Translations under genes and position numbers: made by a program
Part shown: one piece after another, positions 14,998 to 32,418 of the stretch
Layout: each line of letters opens with the position of its first letter
Position numbering within the stretch: position 1 is the first letter of the stretch
Notes under the pieces: model-generated
Told to the model about the DNA's origin: nothing
Seen by the model: only the letters and a program-made list of their open reading frames with translations
The model's database searches: none
NCBI GenBank assembly: GCA_944331875.1
Contig: CALVJA010000011.1
Span: 417-64,416, forward strand
Direction of reading: 5' to 3'
Source of the DNA: an uncultured Clostridia bacterium
GTDB lineage: Bacteria > Bacillota > Clostridia > Christensenellales > DTU072
DNA length: 64,000 nt

Positions 14998-15010
14998 AAA
15001 AAGCCGATTT

Positions 15011-16728: not shown

Positions 16729-16990
16729 ACCACCGCTTTACCGTGTCTTTCGGGCTCTTTTGTGCGAAATCTCCGACCCCTGTTTGGAGACCAAATAGGG
16801 GCGGCTCGGTCGAGTATGGTATACACTTCCCTCGCCGTTTCGCACAAAATAGCTCCGAAATCCACAGCAAATCGGTGCCGAGTATGCTTATCGTGGCGAC
16901 AAAATACACAGTGGACTGTGTTCTCCTTTCATGGAAAACACTAGTATAAGCGAGCTGCTGTTCATAGCTTAAAAGAATCGGTGCTATACA
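16729..16990 (+). repeat. Mosaic intergenic repeat block
   Basis: Collinear with 14423-14700. Confidence 0.8.
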
Positions 16991-17423
16991 CGCTCTACAT
17001 TGCGACAAGATACACAGTATACCAAACAGCTCTATAATGGAAAACACTATTATGGGCGAAAAGGAAAACAAACTTTAAACTGCCAAGCCATGTAATCGGA
17101 GGGGGGTTACGTTGACACTTCACCCCCGGCGATTAAATGCTCTGCTAACGCTCCGCGCGCCTCCCCCATTAAAATGGCTTGGGGATATGCTGTTAAAGGA
17201 ATAATATGCTTTGTGTATTACGGGAAAGGGAAAAGCTATGTGCGAAACCGAAGTTATCCACATATTCATCCACTAAACACTAAAAAAGACTTTCGATTCA
17301 AGGCACAACAAACAGCAAACACAAAAGCGCTACTACCATATAAAGCAAAGAACGACCATGTCCCTATACTTTCATATGGGGCGGGCGGGTGGGACATTAA
17401 TCTAAAGACCGCATACATACAAA

Positions 17424-17895
17424 CACCGCGCTCGCGCGGTGACTCGCCGAAAGAAATTCAACCAAGCAATAAAGGAATTTCTTTCGGCGAAAAAGGCGCC
17501 GGGAAGCGTAAGATTGGGGCACATCGTCGATGTAATGTAAATTTTATTAGTGAAGTGTTGCGTTATAAGTCAATACTTCGCTAAAAACATTTAAGTGCCA
17601 CAAGCCAAAAGCTTCCGACGGCGCCGTGGCAAGGACAGCGCGTATAGCATACGCGCCGACGCTGCCCCCGTTTGGTCTCCAAAGCGGGGGTCGTAGATTT
17701 CATACAAAGCCATAAAGATTATCTTGCTTGTATTAGTGTTTTCCCTTACATAGGTGTTTGGCGGCAGATTGCCGTAGATTTGCGAGCTATTTTCCGCAAA
17801 ACGGGAGGGAAGTGTATAGCATACTCGACCGATCCGCCTCCCACGGAGGTCGTAGATTTTGCGGAAAAGAGCCGCAAAGATGCGGCAAGATGTCG
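17424..17895. repeat. Mosaic intergenic repeat block including a 130-nt imperfect palindrome
   Basis: Matches 10948-11004 (inverted), 11261-11330 (direct) and 16730-16880 (inverted); palindrome at 17495-17625. Confidence 0.75.
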
Positions 17896-18034
17896 GGAAT
17901 TGATTTCTTTGCCGAATCAGGTCTCACCTTATGAAAAAAAGCGCATTCGGTCGAATGCACTTTTTCTCATCACTTGGCTTATTAGTTCCTTCCAAACTTC
18001 TAATTTACATCTTTTCGGCAAAGAAATCAATTCC
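17896..18034 (-). repeat. MITE/REP-like element, copy 3 (inverted)
   Basis: 21-bp inverted repeats GGAATTGATTTCTTTGCCGAA / TTCGGCAAAGAAATCAATTCC; interior is the reverse complement of copies 1 and 2. Confidence 0.85.
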
Positions 18035-18830: not shown

Positions 18831-18967
18831 TTGCCCCGATATTATGCTACAAACGTAAATTAGGTTAATTATTGGCGAGATCATCATTTTTGCGTTCTTT
18901 TCATCATTTTTCGATGCTTTGAGATGTCCCGAAATAAGGACAAGCGAATTTTACGTTTCCCTCGGGC

Positions 18968-18996
18968 TTGACTTTCGGTTATGTCGGTGATATATT
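18968..18996 (+). promoter_or_regulatory. Sigma-A promoter of the phage-like cluster
   Basis: TTGACT-17-TATATT with extended -10 TG. Confidence 0.75.
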
Positions 18997-19003
18997 TGAA
19001 ATG

Positions 19004-19017
19004 CGAACAAATGTTCG
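19004..19017. promoter_or_regulatory. LexA (SOS/Cheo) box
   Basis: CGAACAAATGTTCG matches the Firmicute consensus CGAAC-RNRY-GTTCG; located 7 nt downstream of the -10. Confidence 0.85.
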
Positions 19018-19049
19018 TAAATTGAACGCGACATACAGGAGGAAAACGG

Positions 19050-19535
19050 ATGCTCTCCGCCAAAACGGCAGAAATTTTATTGACGGTCTATCCCGAACTG
19101 AACGATCTGAAAAGGAGATATTTGTCCAAAGCGAAAAGATGCCTGAGTTTTGAATACAACTCGTCGGGGATAGACGCGGCGACGGTATTCGCGGAATTTT
19201 TCGCCGCGGCGGAAACGTATCGAAACCTAAAGCTGTTCGGTGACGCAATGAGCGCGGCGCTCGGCATTTTGTCGCCCGAGGAGAGGGCGGCGGTAAAAAG
19301 TTTTTATATGCTCGGCGAATCCGCCATGGCGGGAGCGAAGCGGTTCGGCATCGAAAAAACTACGTTCAGATCCGCAAAAAGGCGCGCTGTCAGAAAGTTA
19401 GGCGCATATATCGAGGTACTGGGGTTTGACGAAAAGCGGATATTGGAGTGCTTCGACTCGGAATACGCGTTCGTTGACGCCGCCGAGGAAGTGGAAGCAA
19501 GGTATGTAGCGGCGGCGCGGTTCAAAAGGCGATGA
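19050..19535 (+). CDS. RinA/ArpU-like (sigma-70 region 4 type HTH) late-gene regulator
   Basis: C-terminal half LSPEERAAVKSFY..GES....AKRFGIEKTTFRSAKRRAVRKL; RBS AGGAGG; position directly before terS. Confidence 0.65.
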   Translation: MLSAKTAEILLTVYPELNDLKRRYLSKAKRCLSFEYNSSGIDAATVFAEFFAAAETYRNLKLFGDAMSAALGILSPEERAAVKSFYMLGESAMAGAKRFGIEKTTFRSAKRRAVRKLGAYIEVLGFDEKRILECFDSEYAFVDAAEEVEARYVAAARFKRR

Positions 19536-19559
19536 AGCCGCCCGCGGGCGGTTTTTTTT
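19535..19559 (+). terminator. Intrinsic terminator between regulator and terS
   Basis: GCCGCC-cgcg-GGCGGT followed by a T run. Confidence 0.75.
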
Positions 19560-19576
19560 GTGGGAGAAAGCGGGAT

Positions 19577-19882
19577 ATGCGATCGAGATCGATACGGAAA
19601 ACGGACAGGGAGAAACTTCTGAGCGGGCTCATAAAACGCGCGGAGGGGTTGGAAGCGGAGGAGCGCGTCATCGAATACGTCGTCGACGAGGACGGCAACA
19701 GACGCGCCGTAAAGGAAAAAACGCAATATAAATATTATCCGCCCGACGTTTCCGCGGCAAAGGTGTGTCTGGAGCTGGAAAAGGGGAACGCGAACGCGTT
19801 TTCGGGGCTCAGCGACGAGGACCTAGATCGGGAAAAAATAAGGCTCATGGAGGAACTCAAAAGAATAAACGGCGGCTCATGA
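19577..19882 (+). CDS. Putative terminase small subunit
   Basis: LIKRAEGLEAEERVIEY...KYYPPDVSAA..L pattern typical of small terminases; upstream of terL. Confidence 0.65.
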   Translation: MRSRSIRKTDREKLLSGLIKRAEGLEAEERVIEYVVDEDGNRRAVKEKTQYKYYPPDVSAAKVCLELEKGNANAFSGLSDEDLDREKIRLMEELKRINGGS

Positions 19883-20632
19883 ACGTTTCCCGTCGTCGTA
19901 AGGTTCGCGGGATCTTCCCGCGCCTCGGGAGCGGAACAGCAGCACGACAACGGCTATTGCCGGGACGGCAAGTCCCACGATTATGATTATTTTAAGCTCG
20001 TTGTCGTCCAGTGCGTCCATCACGCTCCCGTCCGAGGGAGCGGCAGTATCATCCGCGGGAGCCGAGACGTCCTCGGACGGCGGATCTTCGGGGACGAAGG
20101 GCTCGATGTCGGGGGAAGGCATCGTCGTCCTGTCGGCGCGGATATAGCCGTAGGAGTTTTCGTATTTGACGTAGTACCATGTCAGAGTTTCCGTGGGATA
20201 TACCCCCAAAAACGTTATCGAAGCGCCGACGGGGACCTCGGCGGCGCTATCGGAGGTAACGTCGGGAGAAACTTTCAGGTTTATCGCGGTGAACTCCGAA
20301 AAATCGGCGGAAACGCCAATCTCGCGCGAAGTGCCCGCCGCGGTAGTGTGGTAGCCGACGGCGGAAACGGTGTTTTTGTCTACCTTTCCCGAAACGCCGT
20401 TGAAAGTGACGTAATAGAAATTTTCGTCCAGATTGTTGATCCTGGCGTAGTAGGTGTCGGGAAGCATGAACAGCCTGACCCCGTCGCCGCTTAAAAGCCA
20501 CACGTCGCCGTCCGCTACGATATGCGGCGTATCGGCGGCAAACGCGGCGAAAGAGCTCTCGGGAACAAGAGCAAATATCATCGCGGCGGCGAGTATCATA
20601 ACGGCGGCGAGAGCGGCGCGTACGACTTTCAT
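19877..20632 (-). CDS. Exported SH3b-domain protein with C-terminal membrane anchor
   Basis: Signal peptide ending FAAFAA; FYYVTFNGVSGKV and WYYVKYENSYGYI SH3b signatures; Pro/Asp-rich linker; TM helix with basic tail. Confidence 0.75.
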   Translation of the reverse strand: MKVVRAALAAVMILAAAMIFALVPESSFAAFAADTPHIVADGDVWLLSGDGVRLFMLPDTYYARINNLDENFYYVTFNGVSGKVDKNTVSAVGYHTTAAGTSREIGVSADFSEFTAINLKVSPDVTSDSAAEVPVGASITFLGVYPTETLTWYYVKYENSYGYIRADRTTMPSPDIEPFVPEDPPSEDVSAPADDTAAPSDGSVMDALDDNELKIIIIVGLAVPAIAVVVLLFRSRGAGRSREPYDDGKRS

Positions 20633-20695
20633 ACAAAACAGTATATCCCGTATACGCCGCGCTAAAACCCGTAATTTGTTAAAAAGGAGATTATT

Positions 20696-21037
20696 ATGTT
20701 GATTACCCGCGACCCGCACGATATCGCCCTGAGGCTCAAGGAGATAGATCCCTCATACGAACTTCATTTCAACAATAGGACGTCCCGCTTCGAACTGAAG
20801 GACGGGAGCGGAGCAACTTTGATCGTTTTCCCGTATGACCGCATGGACGAAAGGATGGTACGCCACGCGCGCCGCACCAGGGCGGAGAGACTGGCGGAGA
20901 TAATACGCGAGATAGACCTTGCAAACGAACGCGCCGAAAAAAGGGCGTTAAGGATCCGCGAAAACGCGGCGGAGGACGGACTAAGGGAGGCAGCGGACAG
21001 ATTTTATGCCGACAGAAAAAGAAAGGGAGCTGGTTGA
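20696..21037 (+). CDS. Phage-associated hypothetical protein
   Basis: RBS AAGGAG; 113 aa; overlaps the terL start. Confidence 0.7.
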   Translation: MLITRDPHDIALRLKEIDPSYELHFNNRTSRFELKDGSGATLIVFPYDRMDERMVRHARRTRAERLAEIIREIDLANERAEKRALRIRENAAEDGLREAADRFYADRKRKGAG

Positions 21038-22439
21038 ACGGATACTCGGTATAGAGGCGGAACAGGCGAAACGGCGCGCCTCGAACAAACTTTTATATTA
21101 CAACGCGGGCGAAAAAAAGCATTTGAAACAGCTTGAGTTCCACAGAAGTATCGCGAGGAACCGCTGGGTATTCGGCGGCAACAGGTCCGGGAAAACCGAA
21201 TGCGGCGCGGCGGAGGCGGTGTGGATGTGCCGCGGCAACCACCCTTTCCGCAAAAACAGGCGCGACGTAAAAGGCTGGGCGGTCTCGGTGACGCGCGAGG
21301 TACAGCGCGACGTGGCGCAGGCGAAAGTGCTTTCATACCTTTCGCCCGAGTGGATAGAACGGGTGACGATGTCGGAGGGGACAAAGGAATTTCCCGAGGG
21401 CGGCGTAATCGACACGGTGTACATAAAAAACGTGTTCGGCGGGATAAGCTCGCTGACGTTCAAATCGTGTCAGCAGGGAAGGGAAAGTTTTCAGGGCGCG
21501 ACGCTCGATTTCGTGTGGTTCGACGAGGAGCCGCCCCGGGACATTTACGAAGAATGCCGTATGCGCGTGTTGGACAGAAGCGGCGATATATTCGGCACGA
21601 TGACGCCGCTGAAAGGGCTGACATGGGTGTACGACGAGATATATCTGAACGCTTCCTCGGACCCCGAGATATGGACGGAGACGATGGAGTGGGCGGATAA
21701 TCCGTACCTGAAGGAAGAGGAAGTTAAAAGGCTTTCCGCAGTGCTGTCGGCGGAGGAGCTCGAATCCAGGCGCTACGGCAGGTTCCGCGCGGATTCGGGA
21801 CTTGTGTATCCCGAATTCGACCCTTCGGTACACGTTATAGAGCCATTTGAGATACCGTTCGATTGGCAGTCGGCGATAAGCATCGACCCGGGACTCAAAA
21901 ATCCGCTGTCGTGTCATTTCTATTGCCAGGACTTCGACGGCACTATATACGTCGTCGCGGAGCACTACGAGGCGGGGCTCGACGTAAGATCGCACGCCGA
22001 AAAGATAGACGAGATAGCGACTAATCTCGACTGGCGGCGCCGCACGGACGGAAGGCTCGAAGCGCTCATCGACTCCGCCGCAAATCAAAGGACTTTAGCT
22101 TCCGCAAAGTCGGTGTCGGAACTGTTCTTCGAATACGGCATAGCGGTCAATACGAACGTCAACAAGGATATGTTCACGGGGATAAGCCGCGTGAGGCGCT
22201 TGTTCGCCGAGCGCCCGCCCGCGATATATATCTTCAATACCTGCACGAAAATGATAAAGGAACTGAAAAGCTATTGGTGGGGCGGCGGCGACGTTCCCGT
22301 CAAAAAAGACGATCACGCGATGGACGACCTGAGGTACTACGTCATGTCGCGCCCCGAAAACAGGGAACCGAAGCCGAAGCCAAACCGGTTCCAACTGCAC
22401 AAAACAAAATTGATGCGGTCATGCCGCGTCGGAAAATAG
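21006..22439 (+). CDS. terL: Terminase large subunit
   Basis: Walker A GGNRSGKT, Walker B VWFDEEP, motif III TMTP, nuclease IDPG and DDHAMDDLRY. Confidence 0.93.
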   Translation: MPTEKERELVERILGIEAEQAKRRASNKLLYYNAGEKKHLKQLEFHRSIARNRWVFGGNRSGKTECGAAEAVWMCRGNHPFRKNRRDVKGWAVSVTREVQRDVAQAKVLSYLSPEWIERVTMSEGTKEFPEGGVIDTVYIKNVFGGISSLTFKSCQQGRESFQGATLDFVWFDEEPPRDIYEECRMRVLDRSGDIFGTMTPLKGLTWVYDEIYLNASSDPEIWTETMEWADNPYLKEEEVKRLSAVLSAEELESRRYGRFRADSGLVYPEFDPSVHVIEPFEIPFDWQSAISIDPGLKNPLSCHFYCQDFDGTIYVVAEHYEAGLDVRSHAEKIDEIATNLDWRRRTDGRLEALIDSAANQRTLASAKSVSELFFEYGIAVNTNVNKDMFTGISRVRRLFAERPPAIYIFNTCTKMIKELKSYWWGGGDVPVKKDDHAMDDLRYYVMSRPENREPKPKPNRFQLHKTKLMRSCRVGK

Positions 22440-22447
22440 GAGGAAAC

Positions 22448-24271
22448 ATGTCACAAAAAGAGCTTGCGGCAGAGCTTAGAAGCGACTTCGAACGCCGCCG
22501 CGAACAACGAAGAGAGATCGAAGCGAAGTGGAACCTGAACATCGGATTCATGATGGGAAAACAGTACTCCGTAATAGACCCCCGCGGAGAGATCGTCGAA
22601 AATGCGGGAAGGTTCGGTTGGGAGGGGCGCGAGGTATATAACCATATCGCGCCTTTGATCGAAACGCGGCTTGCCAAATTCGCGAGGATAAACTGTGCGG
22701 TGAACGTGCGCCCCGCGGGCGCGGAGGACGCGGACGTAAACGCGGCGCGCCTGTCCGGAAAGATAATTGACGCCGCGATGCGCGACAACTCGTTCGCGAC
22801 GCTTGCGGGAAAGGCAAACTTTTGGTCGGAGCTCACCGGCACCGCGTTTTTCAAGGTGGTATGGGACGCGGACGAAGGGGAGTCCGGCGGCGTAAAGATA
22901 GCGGTCTGCCCGCCCGAGGAGATCTTCCCCGACGATATATCCGCCGCGGACGTGGGATCTTTGAGGAGCCTCATCCACGCGAAAATTTATCCCGTCGAGG
23001 CGGTATACGAGCTGTGGGGAAAGAAAGTGGAAAGCGAAGACGTGGATATGTACGATTTTACGGGCGCCGCCCGCCGCGTTCCCGAGTCCTCCGAGGAAAA
23101 AGAGGGGTACGTTCTGGTCATCGAAAGATACGAAGCGCCCTCCCAAAGCGCGCCCGAGGGGCGCCTCGTCATAGCGGCAAAAGACACCGTTTTGTATTCG
23201 GGACCGCTGCCGTACATAAACGGCGCGGGCGGCAAAAGGACGTTTCCGTTCATACGCCAGACCGCGCTGAACGTGCCGGGATCGTTCTACGGCATGAGCC
23301 TTATCGAACGCCTGATACCCGTCCAGCGCGCATATAACGCAGTCAAAAACAGAAAGCACGAGTACATGGCGCGACTGGCTGGCGGTGTGTACGCGGTGGA
23401 GGACGGCAGCGTCGACGCGGAATCGCTCGAGGAGGAAGGGATGTACCCCGGGCGCGTCATCGTCTACAGACAGGGCGGCAGTCCGCCGGCTCTGATGGCT
23501 CCCGGGAGCGTGCCGAGCGAATTCCGCGACGAGGAGAACAGGCTTTTGGAGGAATTCAGGACTATATCCGGCGTGGCGGACGTGATAAACGTGTCGGGCG
23601 CGGAACTCAATTCCGTCAGCGGGTACGCGCTGTCGCTACTCTTGGAGCAGGAATATTCCAGAATGTCCGTGACGACCGAATCGATAAGAGCGGCGGTCAA
23701 AGAAGTGGCAAGGCATATCCTGAGGCTTTACCGCCAATTTGCCGACAAGAAACGCCTCGTCATGATCGGCGGCGACTCGGGCGAAGTGGAGGCGGTCAGT
23801 TTCATGGGCTCGGATCTCGGCGGCGACGACGTCGTGACGGAGACCGATTCCGAGATGGTGGAATCCCCCGCGACCCGTAAAAACATGGTGCTGGAGCTTC
23901 TGAGATACGGGCTTCTCGGCGACGAAAACGGGAGGATCTCCAACAGAAACCGCGCGAAAATTATCGAAATGCTCGGTTTCGGCAATTGGGAAGCGGCGAA
24001 AAGCTCAGACGAGATACATATCAAAAAGGCGGCGCGGGAAAATCTCGAATTTTCGCGCGGCAAGTCGGCCGAGGTCGGAGAACTTGACGACCATCAGCTG
24101 CATATAGACGAACACCGCGCTTTTTATGCAGGCGGCGACGTGTCCGACAAAGCGAGAAAACTTGCCGAGGAACACGTCAGGAAACACAAGGTGATGATGC
24201 GGCTCGAATACGAGGCGGCAAACGTCGTTTCGGGCGCTTACACAACAAATAACACGGCAACGGAGGAATAA
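22448..24271 (+). CDS. Portal protein (P22/podovirus-like, 607 aa)
   Basis: Follows terL; YNHIAPLIE, GTAFFKVVWD, FYGMSLIERLIPVQRAYN and DDHQLHIDEH motifs; RBS AGGAGG. Confidence 0.85.
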   Translation: MSQKELAAELRSDFERRREQRREIEAKWNLNIGFMMGKQYSVIDPRGEIVENAGRFGWEGREVYNHIAPLIETRLAKFARINCAVNVRPAGAEDADVNAARLSGKIIDAAMRDNSFATLAGKANFWSELTGTAFFKVVWDADEGESGGVKIAVCPPEEIFPDDISAADVGSLRSLIHAKIYPVEAVYELWGKKVESEDVDMYDFTGAARRVPESSEEKEGYVLVIERYEAPSQSAPEGRLVIAAKDTVLYSGPLPYINGAGGKRTFPFIRQTALNVPGSFYGMSLIERLIPVQRAYNAVKNRKHEYMARLAGGVYAVEDGSVDAESLEEEGMYPGRVIVYRQGGSPPALMAPGSVPSEFRDEENRLLEEFRTISGVADVINVSGAELNSVSGYALSLLLEQEYSRMSVTTESIRAAVKEVARHILRLYRQFADKKRLVMIGGDSGEVEAVSFMGSDLGGDDVVTETDSEMVESPATRKNMVLELLRYGLLGDENGRISNRNRAKIIEMLGFGNWEAAKSSDEIHIKKAARENLEFSRGKSAEVGELDDHQLHIDEHRAFYAGGDVSDKARKLAEEHVRKHKVMMRLEYEAANVVSGAYTTNNTATEE

Positions 24272-24273
24272 CG

Positions 24274-24855
24274 ATGGAAAACGATTTGAACGTGGAACAA
24301 ACCGCTTTAAGTCCCGCCGGCACTCAGGGCGACAAGACCGAGACGGCTTCCTACGGGAAATTCAAGTCACCGGACGAGCTCTTGAACGCCTATAACGCGT
24401 TGGAGGCGGAATTTACCAGACGCTCCCAGCGCATAAAGGAGTTGGAAGGCAAGCTCGAATCGGGACGTATCGAGGAGGAATGGACGGAAAAACTGAAGAC
24501 TTTACACGAAAAGTACCCCGTATCCAAGGGACTTTCCAAGGAGATAGGCGAGTATCTGAAAGCGAACGAGTCCATGATAGGAGAAAAGGATTGCCTTGAA
24601 AAAGCGCTGTTGAACGTGCTCGCCGAACGCTCTTCGTTTTCTCCGTCCCCCGAAAAGGCGCGGAACATACCCCCCGACGGCGCGGACGCGCAAACGGTTT
24701 CGAACGAGGAAAAGGACGCGGGCAGGCGCGTTCCGCCCCCGAAGCTCCCCGTATCCGTCGGTATGCCTCCGGCAAACCCCTTCCGTAGACCATCAACGGT
24801 CGCGGAAGCGGGAAAGCTTGCCGCAGAACATTTCAAAAAATTAAAAGGAGAGTAA
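24274..24855 (+). CDS. Putative capsid scaffolding protein
   Basis: GKFKSPDELLNAYNALEAEFTRRSQ coiled coil and Pro-rich C-terminus; lies between portal and capsid genes. Confidence 0.7.
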   Translation: MENDLNVEQTALSPAGTQGDKTETASYGKFKSPDELLNAYNALEAEFTRRSQRIKELEGKLESGRIEEEWTEKLKTLHEKYPVSKGLSKEIGEYLKANESMIGEKDCLEKALLNVLAERSSFSPSPEKARNIPPDGADAQTVSNEEKDAGRRVPPPKLPVSVGMPPANPFRRPSTVAEAGKLAAEHFKKLKGE

Positions 24856-24858
24856 ATT

Positions 24859-26094
24859 ATGTTATCCGTCAGCTCAATAGACGCGGTACTCAAATCCTAT
24901 TATCTGGACGCGATATGCGCGTCGCTGAATACGGGAGTGAGTCCGCTTTACTCGGCGATAGAAAAATCCGCGGCGGAAATAACCGGAAAGGACGCCGTCG
25001 TGCCCACTATGTACGGCGTGTGCGGGGGACTCGGGTCCACCGACGAAACGGGAGAACTACCCGATTCCGGCGAATGCCTGCGCACCGGGTTTACCGTCCC
25101 GCTCAAAAACATCTACGGCGTCATCGATATTTCCGATAAGGCGCTCCGCGCCTCGCGCGACAACGCTTCGGGGATCGTGGGGCTTCTGAATACCGAAATA
25201 AAGGCGATGGTGCGTTCGGCACAGTTCAACCTTAACAGAATGCTTTGGATGGACGGCACAGGGCTTCTTGCGACCGTGAAGACTTTCACCAACGGCGCGA
25301 TGCCCACCGCCACCGTGGACGACACCCGTTTCCTCGCCGAAGGCATGAAAGTGGACTTTTATCGTTCGGGCGCGGCGGTCATGACCGGAGTCAGGATCGC
25401 AGACGTCAACCACGAGACCAAAACGCTCACGTTCCCTTACGGAATAATGAACACGAATTCGCTGCAGGCGGGCGACCTCATCTACATTCAGAAGTCCAAG
25501 GGGAACGAAGTCAACGGCATTCCTTACGTTTTCGATACGGGCAACACCTATTTCGGCGTAAACAAAGCCACAAATCCCGGCATAAAACCCGTCGAAAAAT
25601 CGCTCGGCGACGAGCTTACCGTGGACGCGATGCAGGAATTTTTCGATACCGCTTCCCTTCGCGCGGGCGTACAGCCCGATATGATAGTGTGCTCGATGAA
25701 AACGCGGCGCCAGTATCTGAAGCAGCTCGAACTGAACAGAAGGAACATCGACTATCTGAACCTCGACGGCGGCTTCAAAACGCTTGCGTTCAACGGCATA
25801 CCCGTCGTGGGAGAGCGTTTCGCGCCGGACGGCGAAATGTACTTTTTGAACACGCCCACTCTGAAGCTCGTGCAGCTGAACGATTGGGAATGGCTGGAAG
25901 GGGAGAACGGTTCCATATTGAATCAGCTCGACAGAAAAGCGGTATACACCGCTACCCTTGTAAAATACGCGAACTTCGTCGCGGCATACCCCAGGGGTCA
26001 GGCGAGGCTGAAAGGCATAGAGGATCCCTCCTCGAGCACGACTGCGTCCGGCGGCACCGACTCCGGCTCCGGTGCGGACGACGCCACCGGCTGA
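24859..26094 (+). CDS. Major capsid protein (HK97 fold)
   Basis: 411 aa; ETGELP, LNRMLWMDGTG and GGFKTLAFNGIPVV..RFAPDGEMYFLN capsid-like motifs; position. Confidence 0.85.
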   Translation: MLSVSSIDAVLKSYYLDAICASLNTGVSPLYSAIEKSAAEITGKDAVVPTMYGVCGGLGSTDETGELPDSGECLRTGFTVPLKNIYGVIDISDKALRASRDNASGIVGLLNTEIKAMVRSAQFNLNRMLWMDGTGLLATVKTFTNGAMPTATVDDTRFLAEGMKVDFYRSGAAVMTGVRIADVNHETKTLTFPYGIMNTNSLQAGDLIYIQKSKGNEVNGIPYVFDTGNTYFGVNKATNPGIKPVEKSLGDELTVDAMQEFFDTASLRAGVQPDMIVCSMKTRRQYLKQLELNRRNIDYLNLDGGFKTLAFNGIPVVGERFAPDGEMYFLNTPTLKLVQLNDWEWLEGENGSILNQLDRKAVYTATLVKYANFVAAYPRGQARLKGIEDPSSSTTASGGTDSGSGADDATG

Positions 26095-26113
26095 TAAGAG
26101 AACTATTTTTACG

Positions 26114-26133
26114 GGCGCGCCTTCGGGCGCGCC
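26114..26133 (+). promoter_or_regulatory. Extra-stable cUUCGg hairpin after the capsid gene
   Basis: GGCGCGCC-TTCG-GGCGCGCC, no downstream T run. Confidence 0.6.
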
Positions 26134-26151
26134 TCGGGAGGTATATAACAG

Positions 26152-26688
26152 ATGACTTTATCCGATGTGATCGAAAGAGCGGGCAACATCATAGGGCTCG
26201 AGGGGGAACCGACGTCCTATCCGACAAGCGCGTACAACAAACTGAAAGACTCCGCAGTGACCGTATATACCGAACTCATAACCGAACACGTCCCGCTCAG
26301 GACGAAGGAAACGGTGTCGGTATCGAACGGAAAGATCTTCTACGAGGATCTCGGAAAAAAGGTAAGGGAGATACTGAAGATATCGACCGGCGCGGGAAGG
26401 TTGAAATTTACGGTCTATCCGGAGTATATTGAAACCGAATGCGGATACTCGGGCGACGCGGAGATCGAATACCTTTATTATTACGTTCCGTGCCTTCCGA
26501 CGGACGAGATGCTCCTGCCGCCGCAATACACGGAGTACATACTTGCCGTAGGCACCGCGGCGGAGTATTTTTACCGCTCGTCCCTGATCGACGAGGCGAT
26601 GTTTTTCAGAAACCGCTTCGAGTCCGCGGTAAACAACCTGAGCCGCACCAAACGGGTGTTCGATCTGCCGTACAGGAGACTGATATGA
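26152..26688 (+). CDS. Putative head-tail adaptor protein
   Basis: 178 aa after the capsid gene; MTLSDVIERA start and LPPQYTEYILAVGTAA helix typical of podoviral adaptors. Confidence 0.65.
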   Translation: MTLSDVIERAGNIIGLEGEPTSYPTSAYNKLKDSAVTVYTELITEHVPLRTKETVSVSNGKIFYEDLGKKVREILKISTGAGRLKFTVYPEYIETECGYSGDAEIEYLYYYVPCLPTDEMLLPPQYTEYILAVGTAAEYFYRSSLIDEAMFFRNRFESAVNNLSRTKRVFDLPYRRLI

Positions 26689-28208
26689 GATACTTCAGTA
26701 GCTTCAGAGACGAACGCCTTCCCGCAACAGGTCAATTGAAGTGCAGTATCGGTGCCTTTGCATCCCTCGACGCCAGACGAGATATTGTCCCGAAATCATT
26801 AAGTTTATGTAGCTATGGATACAATATCCGCTTTACGGGAGGGATACTCCGCAATTCGTACGGCGTAAAGCTCGCAAGCTGGACTGCGGGAGACGATACC
26901 GCGATCACGCTGCCGACTCTCCAATACGAAGGCGAAAACCTTAAACGCCTCCATGTCATACGACGTACGACCCAAAGCGGAGAGGAGGCGGAGGAGCTTT
27001 TGGCGTACTCCGCGGAAGGGAAATTCTACGTCTGTCCGCTTACGGAGACCTCGAGCGCTTTTACGTATTTTCCCGGTATCACCGACGTCACGGAGGATAT
27101 AACGTTCATAAACTACTTTACCGGCGGAGCGGATACCGCTTTGATCTACACCGAGAACGGAGCGTATAAATATGACGGGAATTTTGTTAAAGTCGACGGC
27201 GCGCCGGGGCTCGTCGGGGCGTGTATGCACTATGACAGAGTGTTCGGGATAAAACCGGGCGCGCGCGACACGATAGCGTTTTCGGCGCTTCTCGACCCGT
27301 TCGAATTCTCCGTTGAAAGCGGCGGAGGCGAGATATCGCTTATGGATGAGGGCGGTAAGATATTGAAACTTATATCGATCCGCAACTCCGTATACATTTT
27401 CCGCGAATACGCCGTATACAGGATGACCGCCTACGTCGATCCCACGGAATACACTATCTCCAGGGTATTTTCCGCGGACAAGCCCATTCGGCCGGGATCC
27501 GTTGCGTCCGACGGTGACAGGGTTTTTTTCGTGTCGGGCGAAGACATATTCGTTCTAACATCCTCGGGAGCGGATAGGTCGTACGAGGAGATATCCCCGC
27601 TTATTTCGGACGCGTCCCACGCGGTGGGGCACATATTCGACGGGACGTATTATCTCGCGGCGTGCATCGCTAAAGAGGGGGACGAGTCCGTTGGCGACGA
27701 GTCCGTCGCGGGAGCGATAACCCAAAACAACGCGCTGTTCGGATTCGGATTCGCGCGCGGCACTCTGGATATCGTGCGCGGGACGGATATACGCTGGTTC
27801 GCGGGCGTCGTGAACGACGATATCAGCGCGCTTTTGGTGGTGTTCGGTGGCACGAGGAGCGCGTTCCCGGGGATGCTTACGGACGACGGAAAGCTGTTCG
27901 GACTGCCGCTTAAAAAGCTGTGGCGCTCCCATTTTGTCAGGCTCGGAGACCCCGAGGCGCTTAAAACGGTGAGGCGTATATATCTGGATACCGTATCGGA
28001 CGTCAACATCACGCTGGAATCGGAGACGGGCGACAAACTAGGTTACATCGCGGGCGGCTCGAAAATGGCAGTCGCGATACCGTCATTCGTTATCGGCGAC
28101 CGCCTGAAGATGAGCCTGGAATCGGTTTTTCCCGATTTCAGGATAGGCGAAGCCGTCGTTTATATAAATCAATACGGGAGGTATCTGGGAGATGCAGGAA
28201 ATACTTGA
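26685..28208 (+). CDS. Putative tail nozzle/hub (beta-propeller, P22 gp10/T7 gp12-like)
   Basis: 507-aa beta-rich protein; HYDRVFG, IAFSALLDP.F, VYIFREYAVY blades and C-terminal W.S..LGDPEALKTVRRI; ATGA overlap with the adaptor. Confidence 0.65.
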   Translation: MRYFSSFRDERLPATGQLKCSIGAFASLDARRDIVPKSLSLCSYGYNIRFTGGILRNSYGVKLASWTAGDDTAITLPTLQYEGENLKRLHVIRRTTQSGEEAEELLAYSAEGKFYVCPLTETSSAFTYFPGITDVTEDITFINYFTGGADTALIYTENGAYKYDGNFVKVDGAPGLVGACMHYDRVFGIKPGARDTIAFSALLDPFEFSVESGGGEISLMDEGGKILKLISIRNSVYIFREYAVYRMTAYVDPTEYTISRVFSADKPIRPGSVASDGDRVFFVSGEDIFVLTSSGADRSYEEISPLISDASHAVGHIFDGTYYLAACIAKEGDESVGDESVAGAITQNNALFGFGFARGTLDIVRGTDIRWFAGVVNDDISALLVVFGGTRSAFPGMLTDDGKLFGLPLKKLWRSHFVRLGDPEALKTVRRIYLDTVSDVNITLESETGDKLGYIAGGSKMAVAIPSFVIGDRLKMSLESVFPDFRIGEAVVYINQYGRYLGDAGNT

Positions 28209-28296
28209 AAAGCTGGATGAGATATTGTTGAGGCTCGTCGTACTTGACAAAAAAGTAAGCGCTTCATCCTCCGGCGGAGGAGGTTCGAATGAGTGA
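28192..28296 (+). CDS. 34-aa coiled-coil micro-protein (not in the ORF track)
   Basis: GGGAG RBS; MQEILEKLDEILLRLVVLDKKVSASSSGGGGSNE*; bridges the nozzle gene and the next gene with overlaps at both ends. Confidence 0.5.
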   Translation: MQEILEKLDEILLRLVVLDKKVSASSSGGGGSNE

Positions 28297-29362
28297 TTTC
28301 TCGCCTTCCGAGCATATGGCGGAAGTGGAACGAAAAAAAGACGAAGCTCTCGAAAAGATCAAAGAAGTGTACAGAAAACTCGGTTTGTATTCGGATAATG
28401 ACGAATCCGGGGAGAACGCAGAGGAAACGGGCCCTGTCATGGGTGCTAGCCGTGAGCTTATAGAGGAACTGAAAGATCTGGAGGAGCAATACCGATTGGC
28501 TTCGGCGGGACTGGAGCCCGCGGAGGAAGTCGAGATCCCCGCTACTCTCGGGGAAGAGCCGCTTACGTATGTACATGCCACGGACGAGGAGCTTGCCGAG
28601 ACCGCGAGAAACGAACTCAGACCGCAGTACGTCGCGAACAGAAACGAGGCTAAGGAAAATTATTCCTCGGCGGAAGCTAAGGCGGCGGAGGAAACCGCGG
28701 CGATTTCCGCGGCCGAAGCGGGATCGATAGCGGAGCTCAACGCAAATCGGCGTGACGAGGAGAACGCGCTTACGGAATCGATGGTGATACAGGGGCTTGT
28801 GAACAGCACCATCTTCGACCAGGGCAGCGACTCCGTCCGCAGAAAATACGCCGCCGAAAGCGCGCGGATCAGCACCGAATACGATTTAAAGTACTCGGCT
28901 ATCCGCTCCGAACTCGAACTCAAACAGCTCGAGTACGAGAACGCTCTCAGCGAATACGACTTAAGTTACGCCGCAGAGCTTCGATCGCGCGTGTCGGAAC
29001 TGAAGCGCGAAGAGGAAGCGCGCCTGAAAGAGATCAACGAGTACAACCGCGAGCTCGCCGAACGCGAAGCGGAATATCAAAAGGAGCGGCAGGAAGCGCT
29101 CGAGGCGATATATTTAAGCCGCAGCGAGGCTATCCTGAACGCGGCGAAAGCGGAACAGGAATACGAGCGGGAATACGGCGTTTCCTACGAAAAACAGGCA
29201 GAATACGTCAGGCGTTACACCCTGGCGAAAAACTTCTATTCGCGTTACACCGCGTCCGAAGCGGGCAGCATGATAGAAGAATCGGAAGGGTATCTTAGAC
29301 TTCTCCTCGGCGACGAGATGTTCACGGAACTCGCGCGTTGGAACTTCACCGAAAGGGGGTAG
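28289..29362 (+). CDS. Acidic coiled-coil protein (possible internal virion/ejection protein)
   Basis: 357 aa, E/A/R-rich and helical; QGLVNSTI motif; RBS GGAGG. Confidence 0.55.
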   Translation: MSDFSPSEHMAEVERKKDEALEKIKEVYRKLGLYSDNDESGENAEETGPVMGASRELIEELKDLEEQYRLASAGLEPAEEVEIPATLGEEPLTYVHATDEELAETARNELRPQYVANRNEAKENYSSAEAKAAEETAAISAAEAGSIAELNANRRDEENALTESMVIQGLVNSTIFDQGSDSVRRKYAAESARISTEYDLKYSAIRSELELKQLEYENALSEYDLSYAAELRSRVSELKREEEARLKEINEYNRELAEREAEYQKERQEALEAIYLSRSEAILNAAKAEQEYEREYGVSYEKQAEYVRRYTLAKNFYSRYTASEAGSMIEESEGYLRLLLGDEMFTELARWNFTERG

Positions 29363-29365
29363 CGG

Positions 29366-29659
29366 ATGAAACTGAGAGCTTTGACTATAAGACTTAAATG
29401 CGACAACGGCGTGTGCGATAACTATGCCGAATACGCCGTGGAAAGAAAAGGTACGCCTACCTCGAGGGAGCTGAGGCTATGCGGCGAGTGCATTCGTAAG
29501 CTCGGAGCGCTTTTCAGGGAAGCGGAACAAAGAAAAAAAGGAGGTGACGATAATGTGGGAACAGATCTGGGAGACTGCGATCAACTCGGGACTGTGGGCA
29601 ATGTTGTTCGTGGCGCTGTTCGCGATACAGATACGCGACAGCAAAAACCGCGAGACTAA
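29366..29659 (+). CDS. Small zinc-finger protein
   Basis: CDNGVC...LCGEC; the 3' end overlaps the holin gene. Confidence 0.55.
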   Translation: MKLRALTIRLKCDNGVCDNYAEYAVERKGTPTSRELRLCGECIRKLGALFREAEQRKKGGDDNVGTDLGDCDQLGTVGNVVRGAVRDTDTRQQKPRD

Positions 29660-29756
29660 GTATCAGACTTTGATCAATTCTCTTGCCGAAAAACTCGAAA
29701 TAGTCGAACTTATCAAAGACGACATCGAGGAAATCAAGGAAATTATTAAGAAGTAA
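29553..29756 (+). CDS. BhlA/UviB family holin-like peptide
   Basis: MWEQIWETAINSGLWAMLFVALF...SKNRETKYQTLI..L; RBS AGGAGGT. Confidence 0.85.
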   Translation: MWEQIWETAINSGLWAMLFVALFAIQIRDSKNRETKYQTLINSLAEKLEIVELIKDDIEEIKEIIKK

Positions 29757-29801
29757 AATTTATTGCCCGATTTTATACCGATTCGAACAAGTGCTCATAT
29801 G

Positions 29802-29915
29802 GTTTTGAGGGGCAGATGCGCCCAAATTCTGCGCGTTGACCCGCTAGCACGTACCGCTGCGGGTACGAGCGTCGGGGACACCGCTTGCCTTTGAACGTAT
29901 CTGCCGCCTCAAAAC
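29802..29915. repeat. ~115-bp imperfect palindrome (REP-like)
   Basis: GTTTTGAGG-GGCAGATGCG...CGTATCTGCC-GCCTCAAAAC with inner CGTACC/GGTACG hairpin. Confidence 0.7.
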
Positions 29916-30013
29916 TCCAGGGCACTTCGGAAACAATGAAAAGTCATTGTTTCCGAAGCATATTCGACTTGTTCTCATCGGTATTGACTTCCTAATATGC
30001 TTATATTTTATTA

Positions 30014-30360
30014 GGGCGCGGACGGCGCATAGTTTCGCTATAGCGCCGCCCGCGTATTTCGTGCGATATGACGTTAGTTTGCGAACGCAAACCTGGCGCG
30101 AATGCGCTAAAATAGTCTGCAAATCGGCGCCAAGTATGCTGTTCGTGGCGACAAGATACACAGTGGGCTATATTCTCCTATAAGGGAAAACACTAACAAA
30201 AGCGAACTGCTGTTCATTGCTCTAAAGTAAAAAATAACAAGAGCCTATATTACGCCTACAGCCGTAGATTTTCGGGTGATTTTTCGCAAACACAAAGGCG
30301 GCATACGACGTATGTCGCCTTTGTGTTTGCGGAAAAGGAGCGAAAAGATACGGAAATTAA
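30014..30360 (+). repeat. Mosaic intergenic repeat block
   Basis: Direct homology to 14506-14803 and inverted homology to 11030-11207. Confidence 0.85.
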
Positions 30361-30464
30361 ATTTTATAGTCAATATATTGCTTTTCGATCTAATGACCGC
30401 AACAAAATCCGCGGGGGATAGATTGAGTGGATAAGATGTATTATTTGAATGTGCATATCTCTAA

Positions 30465-30614
30465 AAAATCTAGCGGATTTTATTTCACAAATTGAAACTT
30501 TGCCCGCGAAGTTTCAATTTATTTCGCAATTCCGCTTGCGGAATTATTTCACAATTTTGCGCAGCAAAATTATTTCACATTGACTTGAAGCCGATGATTC
30601 GGCTTCAAGTCAAT
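30465..30614. repeat. ATTTCAC-punctuated hairpin array, copy 2
   Basis: ATTTC(A/G)C at 30482, 30521, 30546 and 30572, each followed by an inverted repeat. Confidence 0.85.
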
Positions 30615-31668: not shown

Positions 31669-32418
31669 TCAGCTTCGGTGCGCGCTTTTTTCGCGCGCTA
31701 TGGACAAAAGCGCGAGCGAGAGCGGAAGAAGCGAAAACCACAGATAGCTTTCGACGGCAAACGCGCCTAACAAAAAGCAAAACGCGGTCAGAAGATAATA
31801 TTTTATTTTCGCGGGGTCCAGTATGATATCCGCGGCCTCCGAGGCGCTCAAACCTTCGAAACGGCGCTTTTTCTTTTTCTCGGGACGGACAGGGAGCGCG
31901 TTTCTGGTGTAAAGGTACTTGTGGACGCGTCTTTTTTCGGGGAAACGGAACTCGACGTTCAGAATGGCGGTAAGCTGTAATACATATCGGGTGCGGCGGC
32001 GGGTAAGGATATAAACTTCGTTCAGACCCTCTTTTACCGCGTACCTGTATGCTGCGGCTATGTCCTCGCGGGTGAGGTCCAAAAACTTGTACAGACAGGC
32101 TACGACTACGTTTTTTTTGCCGTCGGAGGCGATGAAATAGGGCGCTTCCGACTTTACGCGCCTGTCTTCGGGCAGCGTCAGGTATATTAGCTCCGTCTGC
32201 GCGTAGGCGCCTTTTAATGCCAAAAGATCGCACATCTCCTGGCAGGAGATCGTTTTCATGCGTCTGACTCCCGCCGCCTTCAACACCGCCGCGAGCATTA
32301 CGACCGATACCCCGGCGATCGCGAGGGAAATATCGTACGGCAAAAACTTTGCCGCGAGCAGAAATACCGCCGCCGCGAATATCAGCGAGGATACGACCTT
32401 GTCTATTACGGACGCCAT
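31669..32418 (-). CDS. Hypothetical membrane protein
   Basis: N- and C-terminal TM pairs flanking a soluble alpha/beta domain. Confidence 0.65.
   Translation of the reverse strand: MASVIDKVVSSLIFAAAVFLLAAKFLPYDISLAIAGVSVVMLAAVLKAAGVRRMKTISCQEMCDLLALKGAYAQTELIYLTLPEDRRVKSEAPYFIASDGKKNVVVACLYKFLDLTREDIAAAYRYAVKEGLNEVYILTRRRTRYVLQLTAILNVEFRFPEKRRVHKYLYTRNALPVRPEKKKKRRFEGLSASEAADIILDPAKIKYYLLTAFCFLLGAFAVESYLWFSLLPLSLALLSIAREKSAHRS

What the first reader, a model, noticed from the sequence alone, without database searches (positions are those of the whole stretch)
18968..29756. Candidate SOS-controlled podovirus-type gene transfer agent in a Clostridia-type bacterium
Seen: a ~10.8-kb cluster with intact terS, terL (ATPase and nuclease motifs present), portal, scaffold, capsid, adaptor, nozzle, coiled-coil protein and holin. 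No integrase, excisionase, CI/Cro, replication gene, flanking tRNA or att repeat is recognisable, there are no pseudogene fragments, and codon style resembles the housekeeping genes. Established: GTAs are host-regulated, replication-less head/tail clusters that package host DNA, and accessory genes can lie at other loci. Inference: a domesticated DNA-packaging particle under host LexA control. To my knowledge such a podoviral GTA has not been characterised in this group.
Basis: partly seen in the sequence, partly recalled or inferred. Interest (0 to 1): 0.92.

Follow-up and report, generated by a model that had tools for sequence, protein, structure and literature searches.

The report
Domesticated short-tailed phage particle cluster
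A chicken-gut Clostridia bacterium carries a stripped-down, host-inherited set of short-tailed phage head, packaging and lysis genes wired to the DNA-damage response, most likely a gene-transfer-agent-like particle of the kind recently found in Faecalibacterium.

Summary
The cluster is real (window 18968-29756). Profiles and folds confirm TerL, portal, capsid, adaptor, nozzle and BhlA holin. A short TerS-like gene (19577-19882) and a conserved opposite-strand membrane-protein gene (19877-20632) were missed.

A perfect LexA box follows a sigma-A-type promoter in front of a sigma-region-4 protein. It is conserved in 12 of 12 species examined.

No integrase, replication gene or other terminase or capsid was found.

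TerL is present in 20 of 21 species genomes of the genus. Nearest species share the host flanks. The TerL tree shares 12 of 18 splits with the Lon tree. pN is far below pS, as in flanking host genes, and codon use matches housekeeping genes.

A related full prophage in another genus has integrase, replication initiator, canonical TerS and tail fibre. None has a homologue here.

Domestication is well supported. Host-DNA packaging and transfer are untested, and no fibre or endolysin was found. A podovirus-like GTA in Clostridia (FpGTA, PMC12946183) is already published, so this is a new member of a known kind.

The parts
18925..18942 (+). Conserved palindrome TGTCC-N8-GGACA about 25 nt upstream of the -35 box; candidate second operator, regulator unknown
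   Evidence: A TGTC(C/T)-N6-9-(A/G)GACA palindrome is visible at this position in most of the 12 orthologous upstream regions printed. It is not enriched genome-wide: 15 sites against about 30 in shuffles.
18968..18996 (+). Sigma-A-type promoter: TTGACT (18968-18973), 17-nt spacer, TATATT (18991-18996)
   Evidence: Read. TTGAC(T/A)-N17-TATAnT is conserved in the 12 species.
19004..19017 (+). LexA (Cheo-type) box CGAACAAATGTTCG, just after the -10 box
   Evidence: The GAAC-N4-GTTC core sits at the same place in 12 of 12 species. It is one of 8 exact sites in the genome. The genome has lexA, whose own upstream region shares ATGTTCGTAAATT with this site.
19050..19535 (+). Sigma-70 region-4-type regulator (161 aa), presumed activator of the structural genes
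   Evidence: Sigma70_r4_2 at 2.9e-4. The orthologue profile hits sigma region 4 in PDB (3hug_A, 2.5e-7). Sigma70_r4 is found in 9 of 12 orthologues. It is the first gene of the cluster in all genera where it was found.
19536..19560 (+). Terminator-like hairpin GCCGCCCGCGGGCGG followed by T8, after the regulator gene
   Evidence: Read. Similar hairpins appear in G010 and G013 but not in all species.
19577..19882 (+). Short TerS-like protein (101 aa)
   Evidence: phrog_309 'terminase small subunit' in 7 of 12 orthologues, best 1.6e-7; the window's own copy gives no hit. It lies next to TerL in the other genera. It is about half the length of the canonical 194-aa TerS of prophage G033b.
19877..20632 (-). 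Conserved opposite-strand gene: signal peptide, SH3b-like region, C-terminal membrane anchor (251 aa); role unknown
   Evidence: Sequence. SH3_3 at 4.1e-4. 52-67% identical in 11 other species. dN/dS 0.08-0.15. Found next to the regulator and TerL in other families.
20696..21037 (+).
   Evidence: No family hit. It lies directly after the capsid gene in the other genera and in prophage G033b, which has its own TerS.
21006..22439 (+). Large terminase TerL (477 aa)
   Evidence: PF03237 4.2e-16 and phrog_2 8.6e-30. 134 residues are invariant in 26 orthologues, including G57-x4-G62K63T64, D173E174E175, D294, D356 and D436.
22448..24271 (+). Portal protein (607 aa)
   Evidence: P22_portal 7.1e-17, SU10_portal 3.5e-10, phrog_156 9.6e-37. 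The start codon and ribosome-binding site were checked.
24274..24855 (+). Scaffolding protein (193 aa), assigned by position
   Evidence: No family hit. It always lies between the portal and capsid genes.
24859..26094 (+). Major capsid protein (411 aa), SU10-like family
   Evidence: phrog_14242 1.5e-39. Relatives carry PF17236 and are named 'phage major capsid protein'.
26152..26688 (+). Head-to-tail adaptor (178 aa), T7 gp11 type
   Evidence: Model pLDDT 88.9. 23 PDB matches at E <= 0.001, led by podovirus tail adaptors: KHP30 3.9e-6, N4, SU10 7z47_A, T7 7box_N.
26685..28208 (+). Tail nozzle / hub (507 aa), beta-propeller, P22 gp10 / T7 gp12 type
   Evidence: Model pLDDT 88.3, pTM 0.88. Pa223 9nwi_Y 3.9e-21, VP1 TM-score 0.71, SU10, P22 gp10 8eap_D, T7 7ey7_s.
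28289..29362 (+). DUF7934 coiled-coil protein (357 aa); possibly a tail plug or needle, by position only
   Evidence: PF25588 2.6e-35. No solved relative by sequence. It follows the nozzle gene, as the needle gene does in P22 (gene order recalled).
29366..29659 (+). Small Cys-rich protein (CxxxxC...CxxC); its 3' end overlaps the holin gene
   Evidence: Sequence. Conserved in relatives, where it lies between the TerS-like gene and the portal gene.
29544..29756 (+). BhlA-family holin (70 aa); last gene of the cluster
   Evidence: PF10960 2.5e-16. phrog_2429 6.7e-12. 77-94% identical over 47-48 aligned residues across the genus.
29772..29990 (.). MITE-like hairpin repeat; not part of the system, but it marks the cluster's 3' edge
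   Evidence: Fold energy -106 kcal/mol, z -10.7. 21 BLAST hits on 14 contigs at 92-95% identity. No Rfam family.

Best explanation
The locus is a host-fixed, vertically inherited remnant of a P22/SU10-type short-tailed phage. It has been reduced to a morphogenesis, packaging and lysis module. It most likely makes GTA-like particles that package host DNA after DNA damage.

Proposed sequence of events:
1. LexA sits on a box just downstream of a sigma-A promoter and represses a small sigma-region-4 protein.
2. DNA damage removes LexA in some cells, and the regulator switches on the structural genes.
3. Portal, scaffold and capsid protein build proheads.
4. TerL, with only a half-length TerS-like partner, fills the heads without sequence specificity.
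5. Adaptor, nozzle and the DUF7934 coiled coil close the portal.
6. The BhlA holin, with an unidentified wall hydrolase, releases the particles.

The locus has no integrase and no replication gene, so it cannot spread by itself and must be kept by selection on the host.

Shown here: gene identities, the conserved LexA box, the missing phage functions, co-divergence with the host, and purifying selection.

Inferred: the regulatory cascade, random packaging, particle release, and any DNA delivery.
For: Gene content:
- See parts.

Missing phage functions:
- No tRNA in the window.
- No tyrosine integrase on the contig, nor near the cluster in G001, G004 or G040.
- The only serine recombinase is on C6.
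- No other TerL_ATPase, Terminase_3 or Phage_capsid match in the 95.9%-complete genome.

Contrast with a real phage:
- Prophage G033b has TerL 56%, portal 38% and capsid 34% identical to this cluster.
- It carries an integrase (3.3e-39), a replication initiator (9.9e-11), a canonical TerS (8.2e-20), an 807-aa tail protein and a fibre.
- None of these has a homologue in this genome at E 1e-4, apart from generic integrase hits on other contigs.

Inheritance:
- Capsid gene in 18 of 21 and TerL in 20 of 21 species genomes of the genus, one cluster each.
- The cluster is collinear in 11 other species.
- Four nearer species share downstream host flanks, and two also the upstream ones, with flank identities like those of the cluster (M20 82%, RsfS 80% against TerL 80%, portal 75%).
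- G040, from another family, also has the M20 peptidase next to the regulator gene.
- TerL and Lon trees of 21 genomes share 12 of 18 splits; label shuffles give a mean of 0.25 and a maximum of 4 in 2000. Mantel rho is 0.86, with 0 of 2000 permutations as high.

Selection:
- In four species pairs, cluster genes give dN/dS mostly 0.07-0.29. The small overlapping gene at 29366 gives 0.33-0.58.
- Flank genes give 0.03-0.29.
- pS is 0.37-0.87 in the cluster (0.51-0.87 apart from the overlapping gene at 29366) and 0.53-0.82 in the flanks, that is, equally saturated.
- Codon-frequency correlation with housekeeping genes is 0.949, against 0.957 for housekeeping split halves. GC3 is 0.683 against 0.679.

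Distribution:
- In a class-wide sample, 27 of 401 genomes have the capsid gene at E <= 1e-30, concentrated by lineage.
- One family of 0.8-1.1-Mb, 99-100%-complete genomes has it in 7 of 7 and keeps the gene order.

Regulation:
- LexA box in 12 of 12 species, and in G023 of a sister genus.

Precedent:
- FpGTA operon I is 10.5 kb with ten ORFs: TerS without a DNA-binding domain, TerL, portal, scaffold, capsid and short-tail genes.
- It makes ~40-nm capsids holding 8.4-8.9 kb of host DNA (PMC12946183, section 9).

Weak support:
- Contigs from three RNA libraries of three studies lie on cluster genes. DNA carry-over is not excluded.
Against: - There are no particle, packaged-DNA or transfer data; the organism is known only from metagenome bins.
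- No receptor-binding protein, fibre, ejection protein or endolysin was found in the cluster, downstream of it in 8 relatives, or elsewhere in the genome using the G033b prophage proteins as queries. DNA delivery is therefore doubtful.
- The promoter of the structural genes was not identified. The conserved motifs in the 60-nt gap before 20696 may belong to the opposite-strand gene.
- Host flanks differ between sub-clades of the genus, so the locus has moved or its surroundings were rearranged.
- One good genome (G005, 96% complete, 20 contigs) lacks capsid, TerL and portal genes.
- No LexA-like box was found with my pattern in 2 of 5 more distant genera.
- dS is saturated, so dN/dS values are rough.
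- Only one genome per species was searched, so strain-level presence is unknown.
- Metagenome bins often lose prophages, so a helper phage cannot be excluded.
- Homology to FpGTA could not be tested.
Confidence: 0.6

Rival explanations
1. An SOS-induced killer or lysis particle in the manner of PBSX. The particles, or the BhlA protein itself, harm competitors or release cell contents. Any packaged DNA is incidental and is not delivered.
For: The BhlA families in PHROGs are annotated 'involved in bacteriocin production or immunity'. No fibre, ejection protein or endolysin was found. The control logic of SOS plus a sigma-like activator matches what I recall of PBSX. The FpGTA authors leave the same option open (PMC12946183, section 10).
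Against: PBSX kills with a contractile tail, whereas this cluster has only an adaptor and a nozzle. TerL catalytic residues and the portal are strictly conserved, which points to selection on DNA packaging itself. A head is not needed for a holin-based bacteriocin.
Confidence: 0.2
2. A helper-dependent satellite, of the capsid-forming island type, that makes its own heads and borrows fibres and other functions from a resident or infecting phage.
For: It encodes head, packaging and connector genes but no fibres. Full prophage relatives exist in the same order. Bins can miss prophages.
Against: There is no integrase, replication or excision gene and no att site. It co-diverges with the host and shares host flanks. 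Codon use is host-like. No other terminase or capsid gene is in the genome. It is retained in 0.8-1.1-Mb genomes in 7 of 7 sampled.
Confidence: 0.07
3. A defective prophage remnant without function, decaying slowly.
For: Most phage functions are gone. One species in the genus lacks it.
Against: All 13 genes are intact and collinear in 12 species, with pN far below pS. The gene set is conserved across several families. The promoter and LexA box are conserved while the surrounding intergenic sequence is not.
Confidence: 0.03

Closest known systems
FpGTA of Faecalibacterium prausnitzii (Borodovich et al., Nat Commun 2026, PMC12946183; sections 9-10 and passages read)
   Same: Both are in gut Clostridia. 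Both have a ~10.5-kb operon with a TerS lacking an obvious DNA-binding domain, then TerL, portal, scaffold, capsid and short-tail genes. Both are near-ubiquitous in their genus and have no other prophage functions.
   Different: Sequence homology could not be tested because FpGTA sequences were not obtainable with these tools. FpGTA has a second 5.5-kb operon (baseplate, fibre, receptor-binding protein, holin, endolysin), and no counterpart was found here. The holin here lies inside the main cluster. The LexA box, the sigma-region-4 regulator and the opposite-strand membrane-protein gene are not mentioned in the main text of that paper (0 occurrences of 'LexA'). FpGTA has particle, DNA and proteomic data; this locus has none.
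RcGTA-type gene transfer agents of Alphaproteobacteria (recalled; reviews seen only as search listings)
   Same: A replication-less head, tail and packaging cluster that is inherited vertically, under purifying selection and under host regulation. TerS is degenerate. A dedicated activator has a sigma-like domain (GafA, recalled).
   Different: RcGTA derives from a long-tailed (siphovirus) HK97-type phage and has a capsid protease. This cluster is P22/SU10-like and short-tailed, uses a scaffold and has no protease. The hosts are in another phylum, and control is direct through LexA.
PBSX of Bacillus subtilis (recalled; mentioned in PMC12946183, section 10)
   Same: A Gram-positive, SOS-inducible, host-fixed phage-like element. 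A sigma-like factor drives its late operon, and it packages host DNA.
   Different: PBSX is a ~28-kb myovirus-like element with a contractile tail that kills. This cluster is 10.8 kb and podovirus-like.
P22- and SU10-type podovirus prophages, represented by the prophage in genome G033 (L108/L109)
   Same: Homologous TerL (56%), portal (38%) and capsid (34%), plus the small post-capsid protein, nozzle and DUF7934. The head-to-tail gene order is the same.
   Different: The prophage also has an integrase, a replication initiator, a canonical 194-aa TerS, an 807-aa tail protein, a 704-aa protein and a tail fibre. All of these are missing here.
Capsid-forming phage-inducible chromosomal islands (recalled; cited in the reference list shown)
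   Same: A small element of about 10-15 kb with its own capsid, portal and terminase genes and no tail fibres.
   Different: Those islands have integrase, replication and att sites and are mobile. This locus has none of these and co-diverges with the host.

Membership tests
Gene transfer agent (viriform) | Phage-like head, tail and packaging genes encoded in the host chromosome | tested here: met
   TerL, portal, capsid, adaptor and nozzle are confirmed. The locus lies between core host genes: ZIP transporter and M20 peptidase on one side, NadD-YqeK, RsfS and the cell-division/cell-wall (dcw) gene cluster on the other.
Gene transfer agent (viriform) | No replication, integration or excision functions; the element cannot propagate itself | tested here: met
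   No tyrosine or serine recombinase on the contig. No replication gene was recognised among the cluster or flank ORFs. The related prophage's replication initiator and integrase have no counterpart at the locus.
Gene transfer agent (viriform) | Vertical inheritance with the host and purifying selection | tested here: met
   TerL in 20 of 21 species genomes. Shared flanks in the nearer species. 12 of 18 tree splits shared with Lon. dN/dS mostly 0.07-0.29, like the flanks, though dS is saturated.
Gene transfer agent (viriform) | Expression under host regulators | tested here: inconclusive
   A LexA box is conserved at the promoter in 12 of 12 species, and lexA is present. Binding and induction were not tested.
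Gene transfer agent (viriform) | Particles hold near-random host DNA in pieces too short to encode the whole system | not testable with these tools
   This needs DNase-protected DNA from particles. The only indirect hint is the half-length TerS-like protein.
Gene transfer agent (viriform) | Delivery of the DNA to recipient cells | not testable with these tools
   No fibre, receptor-binding or ejection protein was found, which counts against this feature but does not settle it.
FpGTA family | Operon I architecture: DBD-less TerS, TerL, portal, scaffold, capsid, short-tail genes, about 10.5 kb | tested here: met
   The same content in 10.8 kb (see parts), compared with the description in PMC12946183, section 9.
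FpGTA family | Sequence homology to FpGTA proteins (capsid RCH50849.1, portal RCH50851.1) | not testable with these tools
FpGTA family | Second operon with baseplate, fibre, receptor-binding protein, holin and endolysin | tested here: inconclusive
   Nothing was found with the tail and fibre proteins of prophage G033b as queries or downstream of the holin in 8 relatives. No search was made with FpGTA II proteins.
Temperate podovirus prophage | Complete genome with integrase, replication, canonical TerS and fibres | tested here: not met
   All are present in G033b and absent here.
Capsid-forming chromosomal island (satellite) | Integrase, att sites and a replication module | tested here: not met
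   the flanking repeats are genome-wide families.
PBSX-like phage-derived bacteriocin | Contractile-tail particle | tested here: not met
   The tail genes are a podovirus adaptor and nozzle. No sheath or tube gene is in the cluster.

The most novel reading that the evidence does not exclude
This is an anciently domesticated, order-wide podovirus-derived gene transfer agent, acquired independently of FpGTA. It was kept even in 0.8-1.1-Mb reduced genomes because SOS-triggered sharing of randomly packaged chromosome pieces aids repair. It is the unidentified genetic basis of the GTA-like packaging of whole genomes reported for Christensenellaceae in human gut virus-like particles (PMC12946183, sections 7 and 9).
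Probability: 0.3. Interest if true: 0.8.

Novelty: new member of a known kind. Interest (0 to 1): 0.6.

Why it matters
Gene transfer agents outside the Alphaproteobacteria are few, and only one podovirus-like example in gut Clostridia has been described. This locus adds three things:
- A second lineage with unusually clean comparative evidence: co-divergence with the host, purifying selection, and retention in very small genomes.
- A natural contrast with a full prophage relative, which shows exactly what was discarded: integrase, replication, the DNA-binding half of TerS, fibres and large tail proteins.
- A simple, testable control circuit: a LexA box followed by a sigma-region-4 activator.

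If the particles carry host DNA, the cluster is a marker for finding GTA producers in gut metagenomes. It could also explain published whole-genome packaging signals in related gut bacteria.

Tried and rejected
Approaches that led nowhere:
- Cultured-phage search. Capsid: 13 records, all 22-27% identical. TerL: 921 records, those listed 27-31% identical. No close phage.
- IMG/VR. Three contigs of 33.6-51.9 kb with the capsid gene at 28-29% identity. Too distant to serve as a donor.
- Sequence-profile searches of PDB for the nozzle, adaptor, DUF7934 and the 113-aa protein found nothing significant. Only the fold searches identified the adaptor and nozzle.
- Profile comparison of the TerS-like family with the G033b TerS gave only a 19-column match at probability 5.8%. 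This is not evidence of homology; the TerS-like call rests on phrog_309 alone.
- Rfam found no family in the window.
- The hairpin after the holin gene is a repeat element, not a regulatory RNA.
- The identical GAACTGCTGTTC sites at 14728 and 30204 looked like att or LexA sites. They lie inside genome-wide repeats.
- The ORFs first called at 13357-14226(-) and 32258-33472(+) gave pN above pS. The real genes are a ZIP-type transporter (13447-14292, +) and NadD-YqeK (32490-33650, +), judged by reading the translations.
- The palindrome upstream of the promoter is not enriched in the genome, so no regulon could be named.
- Second locus. No homologue of the prophage tail, fibre or TerS proteins is in the genome. 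Genes after the holin in 8 relatives are host genes, apart from one small conserved ORF that was not found in this genome.
- RNA libraries. All runs were contigs, so depth, strand and transcript ends cannot be read. Parts without cover, such as TerL in X17, say nothing.
- Complex prediction, the search of protein representatives and the metagenome-contig scan were not used.

Tree rows left out: G002, G005 and G021 had no full-length TerL locus. G008, G017, G019, G027 and G034 had no usable full-length Lon locus. That left 21 of the 26 genomes with a TerL row.

Full report
WHAT IS THERE

The window is contig C11 (417-64416) of a 1.96-Mb, 38-contig, 95.9%-complete genome. Record titles of close relatives name the genus Candidatus Stercoripulliclostridium, known from gut metagenome bins, mostly of chicken. 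Runs holding this DNA are chicken or bird gut metagenomes from 12 studies.

Between host genes lies a tightly packed set of genes on the + strand. On one side are an M20 peptidase and a ZIP-type transporter. On the other are NadD-YqeK, RsfS, an ECF transporter, TsaB and then the cell-division/cell-wall (dcw) gene cluster.

GENE IDENTITIES

- TerL, portal and capsid protein are confirmed by Pfam and PHROG profiles.
- Relatives of the capsid protein carry the SU10 capsid family.
- Two proteins with no family hit were folded from alignments of 14 and 17 orthologues.
  - The 178-aa protein (pLDDT 88.9) matches podovirus tail adaptors, including those of SU10 and T7.
  - The 507-aa beta-propeller (pLDDT 88.3) matches podovirus nozzles or hubs: Pa223 E 3.9e-21, VP1, SU10, P22 gp10, T7 gp12.
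- DUF7934 is a coiled coil sitting where P22 has its needle gene. The P22 order is recalled, so this is an inference from position.
- The last gene is a BhlA-family holin.
- TerL keeps 134 invariant residues in 26 orthologues, including the P-loop and acidic residues.

1. The 113-aa "terS" at 20696-21037 has no family.
   - In all other genera it lies directly after the capsid gene.
   - In a related prophage it coexists with a canonical TerS.
   - It is therefore not the small terminase.
2. The 101-aa gene at 19577-19882 is the better TerS candidate.
   - 7 of 12 orthologues hit phrog_309, "terminase small subunit". The window's own copy does not.
   - It always lies next to TerL in the other genera.
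   - It is half the length of the prophage TerS.
3. Between it and the structural genes, on the opposite strand, is a gene for a 251-aa protein with a signal peptide, an SH3b-like region and a C-terminal membrane anchor.
   - It is 52-67% identical across the genus and under purifying selection.
   - It keeps its place next to the regulator gene in other families.
   - Its role is unknown.

REGULATION

Upstream of the first gene is TTGACT, a 17-nt spacer and TATATT, followed by a perfect CGAACAAATGTTCG.

- The genome has only 8 such exact sites.
- It has lexA, whose own upstream region carries a near-consensus box and shares 13 nt with this site.
- In all 12 species whose upstream regions I extracted, the promoter and the GAAC-N4-GTTC core sit at the same position while the surrounding sequence differs.
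- A sister genus also has the box. Of four further genera, two have degenerate or displaced boxes and two have none under my pattern.

The first gene encodes a 161-aa protein whose orthologue profile matches sigma-factor region 4: 3hug_A at 2.5e-7, and Sigma70_r4 in 9 of 12 orthologues. That it activates the structural genes is inferred from position and from analogy with PBSX Xpf and RcGTA GafA, both recalled. I could not identify its target promoter.

WHAT IS MISSING

- There is no tRNA, no tyrosine integrase on the contig, and no serine recombinase except on contig C6.
- There is no other terminase or HK97-type capsid gene in the genome.
- The direct repeats flanking the region belong to repeat families with 150-280 hits across the genome.

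A related element in genome G033 (TerL 56% identical) is a full prophage. It has an integrase, a replication initiator, a canonical TerS, an 807-aa tail protein, a 704-aa protein and a fibre. None of these has a homologue in this genome. The cluster is therefore that kind of phage minus everything needed for autonomy, pac-site recognition and, as far as I can see, adsorption.

INHERITANCE

- Among 21 other species genomes of the genus, 18 have the capsid gene and 20 have TerL. The two extra genomes are fragmented assemblies.
- G005 (96% complete, 20 contigs) lacks capsid, TerL and portal genes.
- Eleven other species examined keep the 12-14 genes collinear.
- The four nearer species share downstream host flanks, and the two nearest also the upstream ones, with identities like those of the cluster.
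- More distant species have other flanks, shared within sub-clades.
- A genome of another family again has the M20 peptidase beside the regulator gene.
- TerL and Lon trees of 21 genomes share 12 of 18 splits, against a maximum of 4 in 2000 label shuffles. The conflicts are at weakly supported deep nodes.
- pN is far below pS for every cluster gene, with values like those of the flanking host genes. dS is saturated, so the ratios are rough.
- Codon use is indistinguishable from that of housekeeping genes.
- Across the class, 27 of 401 sampled genomes have the capsid gene. They are concentrated in a few lineages, including 7 of 7 genomes of a family with 0.8-1.1-Mb genomes, which keep the cluster.

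WHAT IT MOST LIKELY DOES

The most likely function is a GTA-like particle:

1. DNA damage removes LexA and the regulator is made.
2. Heads are built and then filled by TerL with a truncated TerS.
3. The heads are closed by adaptor, nozzle and coiled coil.
4. The particles are released through the holin.

Only the parts list, the conserved operator and the evolutionary pattern are shown. Packaging of host DNA, capsid capacity, release and delivery are inferred. The absence of any fibre, ejection protein or endolysin is the main weakness. It keeps alive a PBSX-like "killer or lysis particle" reading. Contigs from three RNA libraries of three studies lie on cluster genes, but DNA carry-over cannot be excluded.

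PRIOR WORK

Borodovich et al. (PMC12946183; sections 9 and 10 read, other passages by term search) describe FpGTA in Faecalibacterium prausnitzii.

- Operon I is 10.5 kb with ten ORFs and matching content.
- A separate tail and lysis operon lies elsewhere in the genome.
- The particles are ~40-nm capsids holding 8.4-8.9 kb of host DNA.
- They also report GTA-like packaging in Christensenellaceae bins, without naming a gene cluster.

Searches for 'FpGTA', 'DUF7934', 'Stercoripulliclostridium' and GTA with Bacillota found no paper on this cluster.

VERDICT

- The domestication and LexA inferences are well supported.
- GTA function is plausible but unproven.
- The novelty claim is overtaken by FpGTA.
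- I rate it a new member of a known kind, with interest 0.6.

Noticed in passing
window 17-10111 (+); G000 C14:23546-37406: The window holds a 3364-aa ORF with no clear Pfam domain. A paralogous operon (a ~3300-aa protein followed by proteins of about 630, 282 and 297 aa) lies directly upstream of the regulator gene of the cluster, in the same orientation, in G004, G015 and G016, and within about 0.5-1.5 kb in G006 and G009; in G019 only its last two genes are on the contig. In this genome that operon is on another contig.
   Followed up: partly
window 10876-11370, 14279-15001, 16583-17071, 17630-17996, 30000-30370: Several families of intergenic repeats give 150-280 BLAST hits on 25-29 of the 38 contigs. 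They crowd both flanks of the cluster and account for extra DNA relative to the nearest species.
   Followed up: partly
window 29772-29990: A 220-nt perfect-hairpin element (fold z -10.7) gives 21 hits on 14 contigs at 92-95% identity. It looks like a MITE, and no Rfam family matches.
   Followed up: yes
window 15035-16612 (+): A 525-aa ORF built of five 291-bp (97-aa) tandem repeats, with a weak DUF4926 hit. It is absent from the nearest species.
   Followed up: no
window 15020-15095 and 30478-30590: Arrays of the decamer TTATTTCAC(A/T), with short palindromes between them, occur at both edges of the variable flanks. Their meaning is unknown.
   Followed up: no
L130 (G387) 8035-9201 and 9219-10367: A tandem duplication of the capsid gene in one of the small-genome relatives; both copies are open.
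   Followed up: no
L108/L109 and L110 (G033): One complete genome holds both a reduced ~11-kb copy of the cluster and a full prophage relative with integrase, replication initiator, TerS and fibre. This pair could be used to date and dissect the reduction.
   Followed up: partly
L119, L120, L121, L122, L130, L125, L112, L044, just after the holin gene: A small ORF (79-164 aa) directly after BhlA is conserved in 8 relatives of other genera. It was not found in this genome by tblastn at 1e-8.
   Followed up: no
G000 C9:13642, C10:55799, C18:25850: Near-identical palindromes TGTCCATATA(T/C)GCGGACA occur at three other loci. They resemble the palindrome upstream of the cluster promoter and may mark a small regulon.
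   Followed up: no
window 13357-14226 (-) and 32258-33472 (+): These are the longest ORFs at their positions but are in the wrong frame or strand, since pN exceeds pS. The real genes are a ZIP-type transporter (13447-14292, +) and NadD-YqeK (32490-33650, +), identified by reading the translations.
   Followed up: yes
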